Shown here one piece after another: positions 9,001 to 15,000 of a stretch of 64,000 nt of DNA. Position numbers: made by a program. Position 1 is the first letter of the stretch. The number at the start of each line of letters is the position of its first letter. Source of the DNA: Plasmodiophora brassicae (lineage: Eukaryota); the NCBI GenBank assembly GCA_036867785.1, contig CP145421.1:248001-312000 (forward strand), given 5' to 3'.

Positions 9001-12000
9001 AGCATTACCACCGTTGGCACATCACGACGACCCGACATGATCACCGATTGAAATACCAAAATGAGGCACAACATTATTGGCCGTTTCTGATTCGAGTTCA
9101 GCGGGTGCAGCTCTCACCGCTCGAAACACCTTTGCGTCCTCGCATTTGTCGCAACCTACAGGATAGACGTTATGTACCCGATAGCAAAGCGATCACCTTC
9201 CCCTCACCACCCCGTCGATGCGCAGGGCAGAACATCAGTTTTGACGGAGGGTGGACGCGGTGAAATCGGGCATTCCGACATGGCACTGCACGTGTAGCCA
9301 CCCTCGTACACAGCAAAGGTTGTGGTTGACCCTTTCGGCACGGTTGTTCTGCTCCAGCGTGTACGGGACGAATGTGCGAACATGGCGCGCCACGCCCGTC
9401 TGTTTGGATTTCAGAGATGCCACACGATTTGCTGACAGCGAAGACGTGTGTCGCAGTGCTTGATGAGGTCGAGGGTATCCGATCTGCGACGGAGCAGGTA
9501 GACGGCAACGTGGTGCGTGAAATCGTTCAGCATCGTCTGGTCATACTCGAAGCCACCGAATCCGACAATTGCAGGCCACCGTCCGGGTACACCGCTCTAC
9601 ATGTATGTCGCTGTCACGACATGCTCCCGACATGCTGCGAGGGAATGATCAGCGCTTGCTTTTGGTGAGGAGACAAACCTCGGGTGGGCTTCGACCCTGA
9701 CCCTTGGGAACGCGCCTACTCCGGAAGCGACCGCGTAATGCGACCCAGTGAACGAGAACAGGACGCCAGGAGCCATGGCCTTGCCGACGGCCCGCCGGGC
9801 ACAACCCGCAGCCCGTCAGGAAGAATGGCGGGCCCCAGCGACGTCGTTCACCTGGTGGGCAGCAGTGGCGCTCGACGTCGCATCACCAGCGACGTCGTCC
9901 AGCGATCGGGGTATATACAGGGCATGATTGATTTCGGCGTCGACACAGACGGCAACATCAGCGTTCGTGTCCCGCTGGACGACAACCTGCTCGACCCTGT
10001 ATGCCGTTGATCGCGTCCTAGAAACGGGTTCGTACTGACCCATGTGCGAACGCAATTGATCAGCTGATCGACGTGCTGGGCTGTGGCGCCGTCGCACCGG
10101 AACGGTTCGAACAGGCGACATTGCTGCAATTGCTGCCCGCCCTGTACTATTTGCAAGCGCCGGACGACATGATCGACAGCATCTGCTGGACGGTCGGGCA
10201 GACGTTGGCCATTCCCGACGATCAGTGGTCATCTTCGCGCGTGGAGCACCAGTGGCAGCAGCACACCAGAACGTTTGTGCAGTACCTTATCGTACCTGTG
10301 GTGAACGTCGCGCGCCTGAACATGTCCCGGGTGTAGGGTCGGCCTGGCGGATCTGCCCGGCTGGGTCGTCGGCGATCTGACCTGTCGACTCGCCCGTCTG
10401 GCCTTCCGCGACACATGCTGTTGGCGCGTGAGGCGCAACAGAGTGGACTGGTCCCGCAGGTCGGTCTGGGGCACGCTGCGCCAGGACTGGTTCTCGAACC
10501 TGCCACAGGGCACGGCGGTATACGACCTGTACAGTAGCGATCCTCGCTTTGCCATGTGTGGCACACCTATCGGGACGCGTGGGTCTGAATGCTGGGGTCG
10601 TACAGAATCCTCGACAGAAACCGCATCGAAACCATTCAGGGCAAGCGCATATTCGAGCGACTCTCGTCGCTTCGTCTGCTGTACGTGTTGTCCTGCGTGT
10701 GGACGAACCAGCGCGCCTGACGTCGGCCGCCCAGGAGCCTCTGCCGCAATCGCATCTCGACAATCGCGCCCGGCGCGTTCGAGGGACTACCGTCTTTGTC
10801 GACGCTGTACTCACGATACTGTGCCCTACCTGTGGGTTGGCTGCGGTTGTCTGATTGATTCGCAGCGTTCTAGCGGGGAACCGGATCTCGACGATCGAAC
10901 AGGGCACGTTCAATGGGCTTCTGTCCTCCTTGCAGGAGCTGTAATTCCGCCACCACCGCCACCACCACCACATCGTCCCATGCGATCGTCTGAATGGACC
11001 ACAGGTATTTGGAGAACAACTCGCTGTTGGTCGTACCGGACGGCGTCTTTGCCGGCATGTCGTTGCTGTCTCATCTGTACGCATCATTGGCCTTTCGTCC
11101 TGGGAGTGCCTGACTGTGACGCGTAACAGGAGCCTTTCGAGCAACCAGATCTCGCGATTGGCGACCGGAACCTTCAAGGGCCTGCCGGCGCTAACACATC
11201 TGTAGCGTGGCATCGCGTCCCTGTCTGCCGGTGCAAACGCGCCTGCCCTGACGAGCTTGTGCCTCTGCACAGTTACCTAAGACAAAATCGGATCCGGGCG
11301 ATCGACGATGGCGCTTTCGAGGGTCTCTCTTCGTTGCAAACACTGTGATGCGGCTACCCGTACCTGCGTCTGTCCTTGTTGATTGACAACCGGGTACGTG
11401 CAGGGACCTGCACAGCAACTGTATCTCGTCACGATTGTCGACCGGGACCTTCAAGGGCTTGTCGGCGCTAACATATCTGTGACGTGGCATCGCGTCCCTG
11501 TCTGCCGATGCGAACGCGCCTGCCCTGACTAGAACGTGCCCCTGCACAGGAACCTAATCTGTAACCAGATCGCGGCCATCGACGAGGGCGCTTTCGACGG
11601 TCTATCATCGTTGACGAAACTGTGATGCGTGAACCCATACCTGCGTCTTCTGGTCTAGTTTGTTTGACAGCCACGTGCAGGTTCCTGGGCGGCAACCGGA
11701 TCTCGTCACGATTGACGACCGGAACCTTCAAGGGCCTGTCGGCGCTATCACATCTGTAATGCGGCACCGCGTCCCTGTCCGTCGATGCAAACGCGCCTGC
11801 CCTGACTAGGTCGTGGCCCTGCACAGGGATCTAGGCGGTAATCTGATCGTGACGATCGACGAGGGCGCTTTCGACGGTTTGTCATCGTTGCAGATACTGT
11901 GATGCGTGTACCCCAACCTGCGTCTGGCCTGGTTGGTTGACGGCCTGGTACGTGCAGGACCCTGGGCAACATCCGTATCTCATCACGATTGGCGACCGGG

Positions 12001-15000
12001 ACCTTCAAGGGCCTGTCGGCGCTAACCCATCTGTAACGCGGCATCGCGCCCCATGTCTACCGGTGCAACGCGCCCGCCCTGACTAGACCATGACCCTGCA
12101 CAGGGATCTTGGCAGTAATGGGATCGCGACGATCGACGATGCCCCTTTCGGCGCTTTGTCATCGTTGTTCGAACTGTGATGCGTGTACCTATGCGTTCGT
12201 CGGGCGTCGCTGGCTGACAATCTGGTACGAACGTGCAGGGACCTACAGTTCAGCTTAATTTCGGCGATCGCGAAAGGCGCCTTCCAGGGGTTGTCCTCGA
12301 TCGGCAAACTGTAATGTGGCCCGGCGTGTTACTGTTTGACGATCGCGTTTCATGTCCTGAACTGGGGTACAGTGTGCTGACCGGGAACCCGATCTGCGAT
12401 GCATGGGCCGACGACCAGTACGTCGCTAGGTAGTGAGCCAGGCCAGTCGCTTCCTGTGTTTTATCAACTGGCGTACACCCCGGTGATGCAGCGGATTGCC
12501 AAACGACGTAACCGTCGTGTGTTGTCTGGACGAGTTGTGGAGATGATCTGCTGCACACTTCCTTTCTGCCGCCCCGTCGTCCCCCTTCCCTCTTTCGTTT
12601 GGTCACCGATACACTGTATGTTTCTGCAAGAGGAGGCGCTCTTTAACGCTGATCGGGTGCCGGTCCTGATGCAGGACATCGAACACGTCTTCGCCGGCCC
12701 CCGTCGTAGTGAGTGAAAGACCAGACGCGGCGGTCAGCTGGCGCAGATCCTGGAGACGGCTCATAGTGCCACCGACGATTTAACCGTTTAGCGGAAGAGC
12801 TCGTCGTCAGCCTGCAGGCCCAGCGTCAGGCACCGAGCTGGTGGCCAGCGACCCGATCGTCGCCGTCAACTTCGCCGACTTCGTCAATGCTCGTCTGCGA
12901 TGCCTGCAGACGCGAATCGGCCCGTTGGCGTTCGACGAATTCATACGCAATCAACAACAGACGCTGACTGTTCGGTAGGTTCTCCACGAGGTGGCCGTTC
13001 AAGCCGCTTAGTGGTCCGTTCTTCCGCACCCACTCTTGCAGGGTATGCTCTCGGCCGCGATGTGACGTGGTCGAAGCCGGCGGATGACGACGACGGATAG
13101 GACGATGGACAGGGAGCGGTTCAGGAGACTGAGCGCGAACCGAAACCAGGAGATGTTGTAGTCGTCGCCGACGAGGACGTCGACGATGATGGCGATGACG
13201 TCGCCGCTGTCGAATGCGAACTGGACCAGCGCGAGCCGGACCGTGGCGAATTCCATCGCGCGATGCACGTGCCCGCTCTGCCTGATTCTCTGGATGTGCA
13301 GGCGGTACCCGCGTACGGCGTAGTACCCGATGATCGCCATGCAGACGGCGCACGACGAGAGGGCGCCCAGGCCCGCCAGCCACACCAGGCCGATGGCCGA
13401 TGTCATCGGCGTCTGTGCAAGCGTCGACAGGCGGGCTGGATAGCAGGCGTGCTCGGACGGCGCCGGCAACCCGACGACGTGGACGTCGACGGCGGCCATG
13501 AGCAGGAGGGTGACGGCGCACCCCCACTGGAACGCGTTCAGCGACCGCATGATCCGGGCGGCGACCACGTCGTCCATGCTGTAGAAACAGGACACGGTCC
13601 GGTTCACGAACAGGTACAGGCCCATGTGGATGTCTGCGGCGACGACACGACGTTTAGCGGGCACTGAGCGCCTCGACACCGACACGTGTGCGGTCATACA
13701 GCAGCACTCGATCGGGACGTACAGCGGGCACAGGCCGGCGTCAATGAACGGCAGGACGGGGCTGGCGGTGGCGACCAACGCGGCCGCCAGGTTCAGCAGG
13801 CCTAATCGCAGCGCCATGCGGTGCAGGTCGACGCGCGTGTACATCGTCTCGTACGAGCAGGACGCGGCGACACCCGTGATCGCCACCGCGCCAATCGTGT
13901 GCGACACCCTCTCGATGTTCCAGCCGCCCACACCCATCATGGCTCGACAGGTGTACGCGTTGATCGACAGTAGTGTTCACCTTCCGTACCTTTGGCAAGT
14001 TAGAGCGCGACAGTGCTCTTGTCGACATCGTGGTCGTAGCGTTTGGCGGGTTCCCACTCGCTATTCGCTGAGGCAACCAAGTACCAACCAGCAGTCAGGT
14101 GGATGCCGCTACCTACCACCGAGATGGCCCACGGTGGGATGGCTGAGCGGTGGCGGGATAACGGGTACCGTGCTTGTACAACGGACTCTATTTCTTCTTC
14201 TTACCGCCGCCTTTCTTCGACTTGCCTTTGCCTTTGCCTTTCTTGCCAGGTCGTTCGAGGCGTCGCTGTCGAGACCGACGCCATGCACGCTGGAGCGTCG
14301 TGGCAGCGTTGTGGATGAGCGCGGCGGCTTCGTCCTTGGCGCGCTGGATCTTGGCTTCGCGCTCCGCGATCTCCTGCTTGGCGGCCAGGTCGTCTTCCAT
14401 TCGTTTGCGTTCCTCCAGGGTTTCCAGCTGGGCCCGAACCTCCACAGCGCTCTGCGTCAATTGCTCCAGCTCGTTCTTCTTCTCGGCCAGCTCGTCAGCG
14501 AACTTGGTCGTCCAGTTCGCCAGGTTCTGTACGCCACTCTTGCCGTTAATCTCCCACACAGCCACCACCTTACTTGTTCCGTTCCGCTCACCGTCCGGTT
14601 CTGTTCAATCATCATCTCCAGGAAATCCTTCGTCTTGCCAGCCACACGAACCTCCCTCTCCATCTCGGCTTCTAGCTGGGTCGCCTCTGTATATCCCCTT
14701 AACGTTGAACGAACGCGCAGGCAACCACGGCACGTGCTTCGTTACCGGCTGACAAATCGTCGATGGCGGCATGTCGTTCCCGGCTGACAGTATTGATACG
14801 GGCGATGGAGATGTCGGCGTCCAGCTTGGCCTGGACGGCCAGGTCGTCGCTGACGCGGCGTAGCTCGTCGGTCAGGTTGGTGATGACAGCGTCCAGGTCG
14901 GACTCCCGTTCGGCGAACCGCTGGTCCTCCTGCTTCAGCTGTTCTTGGAGACGGGTCCTGTCCTGCTCCGCGATCGCCTGACGCGCCAGGGTCTCCTTCA

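What the first reader, a model, noticed from the sequence alone, without database searches (positions are those of the whole stretch)
10606..12310. LRR gene built from interchangeable one-repeat exons, with a tandem exon+intron array and variable ligand face
Seen: 13 exons of 72 or 75 nt. Each ends in CT, the first two bases of a Leu codon, so any following exon completes Leu and keeps the frame; exons can be skipped, duplicated or swapped freely. Eight exons form four ~277-bp tandem units with conserved introns and conserved exon 3' halves, but the beta-strand segment differs in every copy: SLSSNQI, YLRQNRI, DLHSNCI, NLICNQI, FLGGNRI, DLGGNLI, TLGNIRI, DLGSNGI. Established analogy: exon-shuffled LRR-ROCO genes of brown algae. 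Inference: a diversity-generating recognition module driven by unequal crossover or alternative splicing under diversifying selection.
Basis: partly seen in the sequence, partly recalled or inferred. Interest (0 to 1): 0.75.

Follow-up and report, generated by a model that had tools for sequence, protein, structure and literature searches.

The report
One-repeat-per-exon LRR gene, clubroot pathogen
This is an expressed leucine-rich-repeat gene of the clubroot pathogen Plasmodiophora brassicae whose repeat domain grew by copying a two-exon cassette four times and then changed fastest on its binding face, but nothing shows that it is still generating diversity.

Summary
Window 10606-12310 carries 13 exons of 72 or 75 nt. 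Each encodes one LRR and each ends CT|GT in phase 2. Exons 5-12 form four 277-bp units, each exon-intron-exon-intron.

The gene is PBRA_007816 of Plasmodiophora brassicae, 557 aa. RNA-like contigs of 3 runs carry GT..AG joints at 12 of the 14 phase-2 introns, always joining neighbouring exons.

The four beta-strand x codons of each repeat vary in 20 of 24 columns. The more diverged intron type varies in 29 of 59 columns (one-sided Fisher 0.0034), and both intron types together in 48 of 130 (2.5e-5). Framework codons are under purifying selection.

So the array most likely arose by tandem cassette duplication, followed by faster-than-neutral change on the concave face.

The reading as an active diversity generator is not supported:
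- No exon-skipping joint is among the 15 of 22 joints listed.
- The one independent DNA-like run tiles the array without a difference.

A second LRR gene in the window uses the same exon phase with unrelated introns. This is a new member of a kind already described in brown algae.

The parts
9738..9998 (+). Coding exon 1 of PBRA_007816. The annotated start is at 9738 and a second in-frame ATG lies at 9825. It begins the N-terminal region that has no known family.
   Evidence: tblastn of P0001 places residues 1-88 on 9738-10001. A joint 9998>10064 is present in 3 of 3 RNA-like runs. No Pfam hit.
10064..10272 (+). Coding exon 2, N-terminal region.
   Evidence: Joints 9998>10064 and 10272>10337 are present in 3 of 3 RNA-like runs. 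The translation is 100% identical to P0001.
10337..10528 (+). Coding exon 3. It holds a conserved LP...WG.L...WF motif region and the cap before the first LRR, and it ends CT|GT in phase 2.
   Evidence: Joint 10272>10337. tblastn gives 100% over residues 158-221. Twelve columns are invariant among three relatives.
10606..11076 (+). LRR exons 1-4 (10606-10680, 10735-10806, 10866-10940, 11005-11076), with introns that resemble no other intron.
   Evidence: Joints for introns 1, 2 and 4 are listed. The joints of intron 0 (10529-10605) and intron 3 (10941-11004) are not among the 15 of 22 listed.
11130..12238 (+). Tandem array of four 274-281-bp units: 11130-11403, 11404-11680, 11681-11957 and 11958-12238. 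Each unit is an A-type exon (72 or 75 nt), a 71-nt intron, a B-type exon (72 nt) and a 59-63-nt intron. These are LRR exons 5-12.
   Evidence: TRF period 277, 3.9 copies. Alignment. Joints at every intron of the array in 2-3 of 3 RNA-like runs.
12239..12310 (+). LRR exon 13, 72 nt, B-like, outside the array.
   Evidence: Joints 12175>12239 (2 of 3 runs) and 12310>12373 (3 of 3 runs).
12373..12433 (+). Last coding stretch, a C-terminal cap of 20 residues, with the stop codon TAG at 12431-12433. The exon continues as 3' UTR to 12615.
   Evidence: Reading. tblastn places residues 533-557 on 12356-12430. RNA-like contigs are colinear over 12373-12615, then show a joint 12615>12675.
32051..33191 (-). 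A second, separate LRR gene. It has at least 8 one-repeat exons of 72 or 75 nt in the same phase (CT|GT), unrelated introns and no tandem array.
   Evidence: Rule scan, intron comparison, TRF, tblastn of P0001.

Best explanation
The locus is PBRA_007816 of Plasmodiophora brassicae, an expressed protein of 557 aa. It has an N-terminal region of about 215 residues with no known family, then a 13-repeat LRR solenoid of the 'typical' type.

Every LRR is one exon. Every intron in the LRR part splits the same structural Leu codon after its second base. An exon, or an exon pair, can therefore be duplicated in frame.

Proposed history (inferred): a cassette of two exons and two introns, an A-type and a B-type repeat, was amplified to four tandem copies by unequal crossing-over or replication slippage. 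Afterwards the framework residues stayed under purifying selection, and the solvent-exposed x positions of the beta-strand changed faster than the introns. The result is an extended, non-periodic concave binding surface for a partner that is not known.

Present state: the array is a fixed part of a gene that is spliced in exon order. It is a record of past diversification, not a running diversity generator.

What is shown and what is inferred:
- Shown: exon structure, splicing, array, and the rate contrast between strand codons and introns.
- Inferred: the duplication mechanism, positive selection as the cause of the contrast, and ligand binding by the concave face.
For: Identity. The exon-2 translation is 100% identical to P0001, named by its source 'hypothetical protein PBRA_007816 [Plasmodiophora brassicae]'. 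The P0001 sequence equals my spliced model.

Domains. Only LRR families pass Pfam's cut-off, with LRR_8 at 1.3e-93.

Splicing. GT..AG joints are listed at 12 of the 14 phase-2 introns, each in 2-3 of 3 RNA-like runs from three studies. None appears in the DNA-like run X10.

Array.

Intron homology is confined to the array.

Selection, Nei-Gojobori proportions:
- strand x codons: pN 0.625 (A) and 0.577 (B)
- framework codons: pS 0.125 and 0.262
- framework codons: pN 0.048 and 0.137

Selection, variable columns:
- strand x codons: 20 of 24
- intron B: 29 of 59 (one-sided Fisher 0.0034)
- both introns: 48 of 130 (2.5e-5)
- codon positions 1 and 2 only: 15 of 16 (0.00088 against intron B)

Structure. 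The AlphaFold2 model has pLDDT above 90 over the LRR part. It shows one short strand per repeat at 220-222, 245-247 and so on to 537-539. By arithmetic from the numbering, each strand is centred on the split Leu (repeat starts 221, 246 ... 514, 538). The top Foldseek matches are LRIG1, LGR4, SHOC2 and LINGO-1.

Family habit. A second LRR gene in the window has at least 8 exons that follow the same rule.
Against: - The selection test rests on only 8 exons, that is 24 nucleotide columns.
- The neutral yardstick is uncertain. The two intron types differ from each other: 19 of 71 variable columns against 29 of 59, p 0.011. Short introns carry splice signals.
- Taken alone, the B-type strand codons do not clearly exceed intron B: 10 of 12 against 29 of 59, p 0.053; against the inner part of the intron, p 0.27.
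- Distances among units are star-like, with quartet sites at 5, 3 and 3. That also fits gene conversion that homogenises everything except the strands.
- Two irregular joints occur in run X16 only: 11204>11561 with 8 extra letters and 11437>11719 with 4 extra letters. They jump about one unit and are not explained.
- Contigs of 3 RNA-like runs keep intron 0, and one also keeps intron 1 (records 12, 27 and 19). Splicing is therefore not complete, or DNA or pre-mRNA is present in these runs.
- Whether the protein binds anything is untested.
Confidence: 0.72

Rival explanations
1. One reading: the array is an active diversity generator. In-frame exon skipping or repetition by alternative splicing, or frequent unequal crossover between units, would produce many LRR variants within or between isolates.
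For: - All 13 exons are multiples of 3 and share one phase, so any subset can be dropped in frame.
- Two unit-sized irregular joints occur in X16 (table 5c).
- One 109-nt X16 contig over 11175-11255 has 8 differences, and those listed at 11205-11208 match none of the four units.
- Brown-algal ROCO genes with 72-bp phase-2 LRR exons show splice variants (PMC11378527, section 11 read).
- A 2026 preprint says LRR and ankyrin effectors show the most accessory variation in the P. brassicae pangenome (10.64898/2026.10.14.759018, passages read).
Against: - All 12 listed joints in the LRR part join neighbouring exons, in 2-3 of 3 RNA-like runs.
- X10 contigs tile 10341-12763 with 0 other letters.
- Units differ by 19-25% and share no exact run of 31 nt in the exon stretch I checked by eye. 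Recent exchange is therefore not visible.
- The introns are too short to hold spare exons.
Confidence: 0.12
2. No positive selection. The strand x positions are simply unconstrained. Gene conversion or constraint keeps introns and framework codons similar, so the strands only look hypervariable.
For: - Distances are uniform at 0.11-0.14 among all unit pairs in the block of exon A 3' part plus intron A, and the quartets are unresolved.
- Intron A is less diverged than intron B, p 0.011.
- The B-type test alone is marginal.
Against: - Unconstrained sites cannot exceed the neutral rate. Yet the strand codons show 1.21 minimum steps per site against 0.61 in the most diverged intron, and a mean pairwise difference of 0.549 against 0.291.
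- Conversion tracts that always spare two stretches of about 20 nt per unit would themselves need selection against homogenising the strands.
Confidence: 0.14
3. Assembly or annotation artefact: the array is a mis-assembled repeat or the exons are not real.
For: None found.
Against: - Fifteen run rows in 5 studies hold 97-99% of the sampled words.
- Spliced contigs occur in three studies.
- The units are only about 80% alike, so they assemble unambiguously.
Confidence: 0.02

Closest known systems
LRR exons of brown-algal ROCO and LRR-kinase genes (Zambounis et al. 2012, PMC3341825; Teng et al. 2024, PMC11378527)
   Same: - One LRR per 72-nt exon in phase 2.
- Exons can be shuffled in frame.
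- The excess of change lies at concave-face positions.
- The exon register here equals their 'type II LRR exon' (xLxxNxLxxxxxGxxxxxxxLxxL).
(Searches compared.)
   Different: - No ROC-COR or kinase domain.
- Type II exons in Ectocarpus showed no shuffling, and the shuffled ROCO exons use another register.
- No intronic or antisense spare LRR exons: introns are 53-77 nt.
- No splice variants seen.
- The organism is a rhizarian parasite, not a stramenopile alga.
Animal 'typical' LRR ectodomains: LRIG1, LGR4/5, LINGO-1, Slit, chondroadherin-like, TLR13/22
   Same: - Closest named sequence relatives of the LRR part, at 28-49% identity.
- Closest folds: Foldseek E down to 8.8e-18, and LRIG1 at rmsd 1.4 over 330 columns.
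- LRR_8 repeats of 24-25 residues.
   Different: - No signal peptide is evident by inspection.
- No Pfam LRRNT or LRRCT hit.
- No Ig, EGF, TIR or transmembrane part.
- The N-terminal region has no known family.
PBRA_007489 (P0025), paralogue in the same genome
   Same: - Same length class, 561 aa.
- Same order of parts: N-terminal region, conserved LP...WG.L...WF stretch, LRR_8 array.
- 32% identity over 513 columns, 40-44% within the LRRs.
   Different: Its protein shows no alternation of two near-identical repeat types. Its gene structure could not be read because no genome is held.
Ribonuclease inhibitor gene built by duplication of an A+B repeat pair
   Same: Two alternating LRR types are amplified as a pair.
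   Different: As I recall, the pair there lies in one exon. Here each repeat has its own exon and the introns were copied along with them.

Membership tests
Leucine-rich repeat proteins, 'typical' class (Pfam LRR_8) | Repeats of 24-25 residues matching LRR_8 above the gathering score | tested here: met
   PF13855 at E 1.3e-93, 307 bits against a cut-off of 27, in 8 stretches.
Leucine-rich repeat proteins, 'typical' class (Pfam LRR_8) | Curved solenoid with one beta-strand per repeat on the concave side | tested here: met
   The model has pLDDT above 90 over residues 221-550 and 14 regularly spaced strands. LRR structures are the top fold matches.
Brown-algal shuffled LRR-ROCO genes | ROC-COR GTPase domain after the LRRs | tested here: not met
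   Pfam lists 12 families at E of 1 or less; only LRR families pass their cut-offs and none is Roc or COR. The protein ends 20 residues after the last LRR.
Brown-algal shuffled LRR-ROCO genes | One LRR per 72-nt exon in phase 2 | tested here: met
   13 of 13 exons are 72 or 75 nt and end CT|GT. The joints are in RNA-like contigs.
Brown-algal shuffled LRR-ROCO genes | Type I exon register (boundary outside the beta-strand) | tested here: not met
   The boundary here splits the strand Leu, which is the type II register of Zambounis 2012.
Brown-algal shuffled LRR-ROCO genes | Spare or inactivated LRR exons in introns or on the opposite strand; rearranged order between recent paralogues | tested here: not met
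   Introns are 53-77 nt. The rule scan of both strands finds no extra LRR exon at the locus.
Brown-algal shuffled LRR-ROCO genes | Splice variants with different LRR sets | tested here: inconclusive
   None appears among the 15 of 22 joints listed. Two irregular joints occur in one run. Contigs cannot show rare isoforms.
F-box/LRR or BTB/LRR ubiquitin-ligase adaptors | F-box or BTB/Skp1 domain before the LRRs | tested here: not met
   No F-box, BTB or Skp1 hit at E of 1 or less for P0001 or for the three N-terminal exons, nor at E of 10 or less for P0006 and P0025. The profile search of solved structures returned LRR proteins in all 60 rows shown of 293 matches. Atlas leads (BTB, FBXL15) score 0.75-0.80, which is chance level.
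Secreted LRR effectors of plasmodiophorids | N-terminal signal peptide and membership of the published secretome | not testable with these tools
   There is no signal-peptide tool. By inspection the first 30 residues are hydrophilic. The list of 19 secretome LRR proteins is in Supplementary file 9 of PMC12503489, which I could not open.

The most novel reading that the evidence does not exclude
Plasmodiophora brassicae keeps a family of intracellular LRR proteins with a lineage-specific N-terminal module. Their one-repeat, phase-symmetric exons would let whole repeat cassettes be gained, lost or skipped between lineages or life stages. That would re-tune a binding face under an arms race with the host, a rhizarian parallel to the brown-algal ROCO system. 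The unit-sized irregular joints and the odd A-type contig in run X16 would then be the first trace of such a variant.
Probability: 0.1. Interest if true: 0.6.

Novelty: new member of a known kind. Interest (0 to 1): 0.33.

Why it matters
The finding shows that the 'one LRR per symmetric exon' design also exists in a rhizarian plant parasite. So far it has been discussed mainly for brown algae, as a route to receptor diversity. Here it has been used at least once to lengthen a solenoid by cassette duplication, with rapid change on the binding face afterwards.

This gives a clean small case for studying how repeat proteins grow and specialise. The gene has not been discussed in print: 0 papers hold its locus tag.

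It does not by itself reveal a new mechanism. The claim that would make it remarkable, ongoing diversity generation, lacks support.

Tried and rejected
- Whole genome: none is held. The search for the same introns in other LRR genes was therefore limited to the window. There are none outside the array.
- Public metagenome contigs: an exon motif gave 0 hits. An intron motif gave 1 hit, L001, which has no blastn similarity to the window and is a chance match.
- Sequencing runs: no RNA holder is listed on record. The six rows with shares of 0.47-0.51 are only guessed to be RNA. Three of them were laid, and they behave as spliced transcripts.
- N-terminal region:
  - Pfam finds nothing.
  - The word-index search finds only the protein itself among 2973 candidates.
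  - The full HMMER scan of 1.84 billion representatives with the paralogue P0002 finds 5 proteins. Three are fragments or paralogues, one is a 180-aa relative (P0006), and one is a low-complexity repeat protein that I take for chance.
  - Atlas leads are at chance level.
  - The profile against solved structures returns only LRR proteins in the 60 rows shown.
  - AlphaFold2 leaves residues 1-100 below pLDDT 50.
  - My first impression of a Skp1/BTB-like or F-box-like start is therefore not supported.
- Conserved RNA structure in the well-kept intron A: 15 pairs are predicted, 0 with compensatory change and 4 broken or gapped in one copy. Rejected.
- Earlier findings of this scan: three look-ups returned nothing.
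- Literature: no paper holds the locus tag. Searches on P. brassicae LRR exon structure found only host resistance-gene papers or secretome and pangenome surveys. A search for general papers on one LRR per exon was uninformative.
- A script meant to map repeats onto model strands and compute per-position entropy was not run. The mapping was done by arithmetic. The entropy table was dropped.

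
Full report
**What is there**

The window has about 60% G+C. At 10606-12310 it carries short GT-AG introns with CTGAC-like branch sites.

A rule-based scan looked for AG|exon|GT with the exon ending in CT and an open frame once the split codon is completed. Each encodes one LRR of 24 or 25 residues.

Tandem Repeats Finder reports one array, 11155-12229, period 277, 3.9 copies, 80% matches. 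It is the only array scoring 100 or more in the 64 kb.

The four units are 11130-11403, 11404-11680, 11681-11957 and 11958-12238. Each holds an A-type exon, a 71-nt intron, a B-type exon and a 59-63-nt intron. They are 75.5-81.2% identical to each other.

**Which gene, which organism**

- The translation of an upstream exon is 100% identical to a 557-aa protein that its source names 'hypothetical protein PBRA_007816 [Plasmodiophora brassicae]'. That sequence equals the spliced translation of my exon model.
- No whole genome is held for this window.
- Pfam finds only LRR families above cut-off, with LRR_8 at 1.3e-93.
- The first 215 or so residues match no family and have almost no relatives:
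  - only the protein itself among 2973 scored candidates;
  - 5 proteins in a full HMMER scan of 1.84 billion representatives run with the N-terminal paralogue P0002.
- A paralogue, PBRA_007489, has the same order of parts at 32% identity.
- The LRR part is closest to animal 'typical' LRR proteins and to unnamed metagenomic proteins. The best hit is 49% identical over 68% of the query.

**Is it transcribed and spliced as read?**

Public runs were searched once.
- Fifteen rows in 5 studies hold 97-99% of the sampled words. Thirteen are flagged as possible sources of this very DNA.
- Six rows guessed to be RNA hold 47-51%. That is what exons alone would give.

I laid three of those six (X15, X16, X18; three studies) and the high-share run X10, which is not flagged as a possible source.
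- The listing shows 15 of 22 joints, all GT..AG on the + strand.
- Twelve of them are introns 1, 2 and 4-13 of the LRR part. Each is in 2 or 3 of the 3 RNA-like runs and in 0 contigs of X10.
- Each joins an exon to its next neighbour.
- Two further joints, 9998>10064 and 10272>10337, tie the N-terminal exons to the LRR exons in one transcript.
- One joint, 12615>12675, lies in the 3' UTR.
- The joints of intron 0 (10529-10605) and intron 3 (10941-11004, which holds a CCA-rich simple repeat where rows were dropped) are not among those listed.
- Contigs of X15 and X18 run colinear over 10499-10635, and one of X16 over 10384-10806. Intron 0, and in X16 also intron 1, is therefore kept in some molecules, or DNA or pre-mRNA is present.
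- No exon-skipping joint is listed.
- Two irregular joints appear in X16 only: 11204>11561 with 8 letters between and 11437>11719 with 4 letters between. They jump about one unit.
- A 109-nt X16 contig over 11175-11255 has 8 differences, and those listed at 11205-11208 match none of the four units.

I cannot tell whether these X16 records are paralogues, a variant allele or assembly noise.

**Is the array variable between samples?**

X10 contigs tile 10341-11249, 11223-11815, 11786-11891 and 11865-12763 with 0 other letters. That is one independent sample. The other high-share rows may include the source. So no variation was seen, but the sampling is thin.

**The variable face**

Mean pairwise differences along the unit:

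| Segment | A half | B half |
|---|---|---|
| First 22 nt of the exon | 0.348 | 0.364 |
| Rest of the exon | 0.087 | 0.23 |
| Intron | 0.151 | 0.291 |

Nei-Gojobori proportions:

| Codon class | A exons | B exons |
|---|---|---|
| Four strand x codons, pN | 0.625 | 0.577 |
| Framework codons, pS | 0.125 | 0.262 |
| Framework codons, pN | 0.048 | 0.137 |

Counting columns rather than pairs avoids counting shared history several times:
- Strand x codons vary in 20 of 24 columns.
- Intron B varies in 29 of 59 (one-sided Fisher 0.0034).
- Both introns together vary in 48 of 130 (2.5e-5).
- Codon positions 1 and 2 alone vary in 15 of 16 (0.00088 against intron B).
- Minimum steps per site are 1.21 in the strand codons against 0.61 in intron B.
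- The x2 and x3 codons at the exon ends are not clearly elevated: 8 of 12, p 0.22 against intron B.

Caveats:
- Taken alone, the B-type strand is marginal: p 0.053, and 0.27 against the inner part of the intron.
- The two intron types differ from each other, p 0.011.
- The units are equidistant with unresolved quartets, 5, 3 and 3. That fits either a burst of duplication or later homogenisation.
- Intron A, the better-kept one, shows no compensatory pair changes: 0 of 15 predicted pairs.

**Structure**

AlphaFold2 with a 40-row alignment gives pLDDT above 90 over the LRRs and below 50 for residues 1-100. It predicts one three-residue strand per repeat, at 220-222, 245-247 and so on to 537-539.

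The residue numbers put the repeat starts at 221, 246, 270, 295, 319, 343, 367, 392, 416, 441, 465, 490, 514 and 538. By arithmetic, each strand is centred on the Leu whose codon the intron splits. Each strand of the binding sheet is therefore encoded by two neighbouring exons.

Foldseek's best matches are LRIG1, LGR4/5, SHOC2 and LINGO-1.

**A family habit, not a singular design**

The same rule scan over both strands of the whole window gives 22 hits:
- 12 are in this gene. Exon 11 misses my motif filter.
- 8 are in a second LRR gene on the minus strand at 32051-33191.
- 2 are isolated hits that I take for chance.

A ninth exon of that second gene ends TT|GT in the same phase (read). Its introns show no similarity to those of the array (Z below 3.4), and it has no tandem array.

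The phase-2 split of the strand Leu is therefore old and shared. The 277-bp amplification is a local event in one gene.

**Comparison with what is known**

- Zambounis et al. 2012 (PMC3341825; section 15 and passages read) describe Ectocarpus ROCO genes with one LRR per 72-nt exon, spare and antisense LRR exons in introns, rearranged paralogues, and positive selection at concave positions. They also define a 'type II' exon register in LRR-kinases that shows no shuffling.
- Teng et al. 2024 (PMC11378527; abstract and section 11 read) state 72 bp and phase 2, four positively selected concave sites, and splice variants.
- The present gene shares exon size, phase and the pattern of change. Its register is type II. 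It has no ROC-COR domain and no spare exons, and no splice variants were seen.
- For P. brassicae, an eLife 2025 paper counts 19 LRR proteins in the secretome, five of them induced (PMC12503489, passages read).
- A 2026 preprint says LRR and ankyrin effectors vary most between isolates (passages read).
- Neither passage treats exon structure, and the locus tag occurs in 0 papers. The supplements that list the genes could not be opened.

**Verdict**

The gene is an ordinary, expressed LRR gene. Its repeat domain was lengthened by tandem duplication of a two-exon cassette, which its phase-symmetric exons made possible, and its concave face then changed faster than its introns.

It does not support an active, splicing- or recombination-driven diversity generator.

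It is a new member of a known kind, of moderate interest. The open items are the odd X16 contigs and the N-terminal region that has no known family.

Noticed in passing
window 32051-33191 (- strand): A second LRR gene with at least 8 one-repeat exons of 72 or 75 nt in the same phase (CT|GT), plus one ending TT|GT. Its introns are unrelated to those of the array, and it has no tandem array.
   Followed up: partly
window 9738-10528 (+ strand): The N-terminal region of about 215 residues has no Pfam family and almost no relatives outside this organism. A stretch LP...WG.L...WF is conserved among three relatives (12 invariant columns). F-box or BTB likeness was not confirmed.
   Followed up: partly
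window 9800-10361: Contigs with 12-22 differences over the N-terminal exons occur in the DNA-like run X10 and in the RNA-like runs X16 and X18. They fit an expressed paralogue such as the 148-aa protein P0002, whose source labels it, oddly, as mitochondrial.
   Followed up: no
window 11175-11255, 11204>11561, 11437>11719: In run X16 only, a 109-nt contig has 8 differences, and those listed match none of the four units. Two unit-sized irregular joints carry 8 and 4 extra letters. This could be a paralogue, a variant allele or assembly noise.
   Followed up: partly
window 11202-11272 and its three copies: Intron A is clearly better conserved than intron B: 19 of 71 variable columns against 29 of 59, p 0.011. 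No compensatory changes support an RNA structure. The reason is unknown.
   Followed up: partly
window 12616-12674: There is a spliced intron in the 3' UTR, or in a transcript that runs on past the stop codon. The joint 12615>12675 is in 3 of 3 RNA-like runs, and the contigs reach 12868, where a convergent minus-strand ORF begins.
   Followed up: no
window 10944-10978: A CCA/CCGCCACCA simple repeat lies inside intron 3 (TRF). Reads seem cut there, and the joint of this intron was not listed.
   Followed up: no
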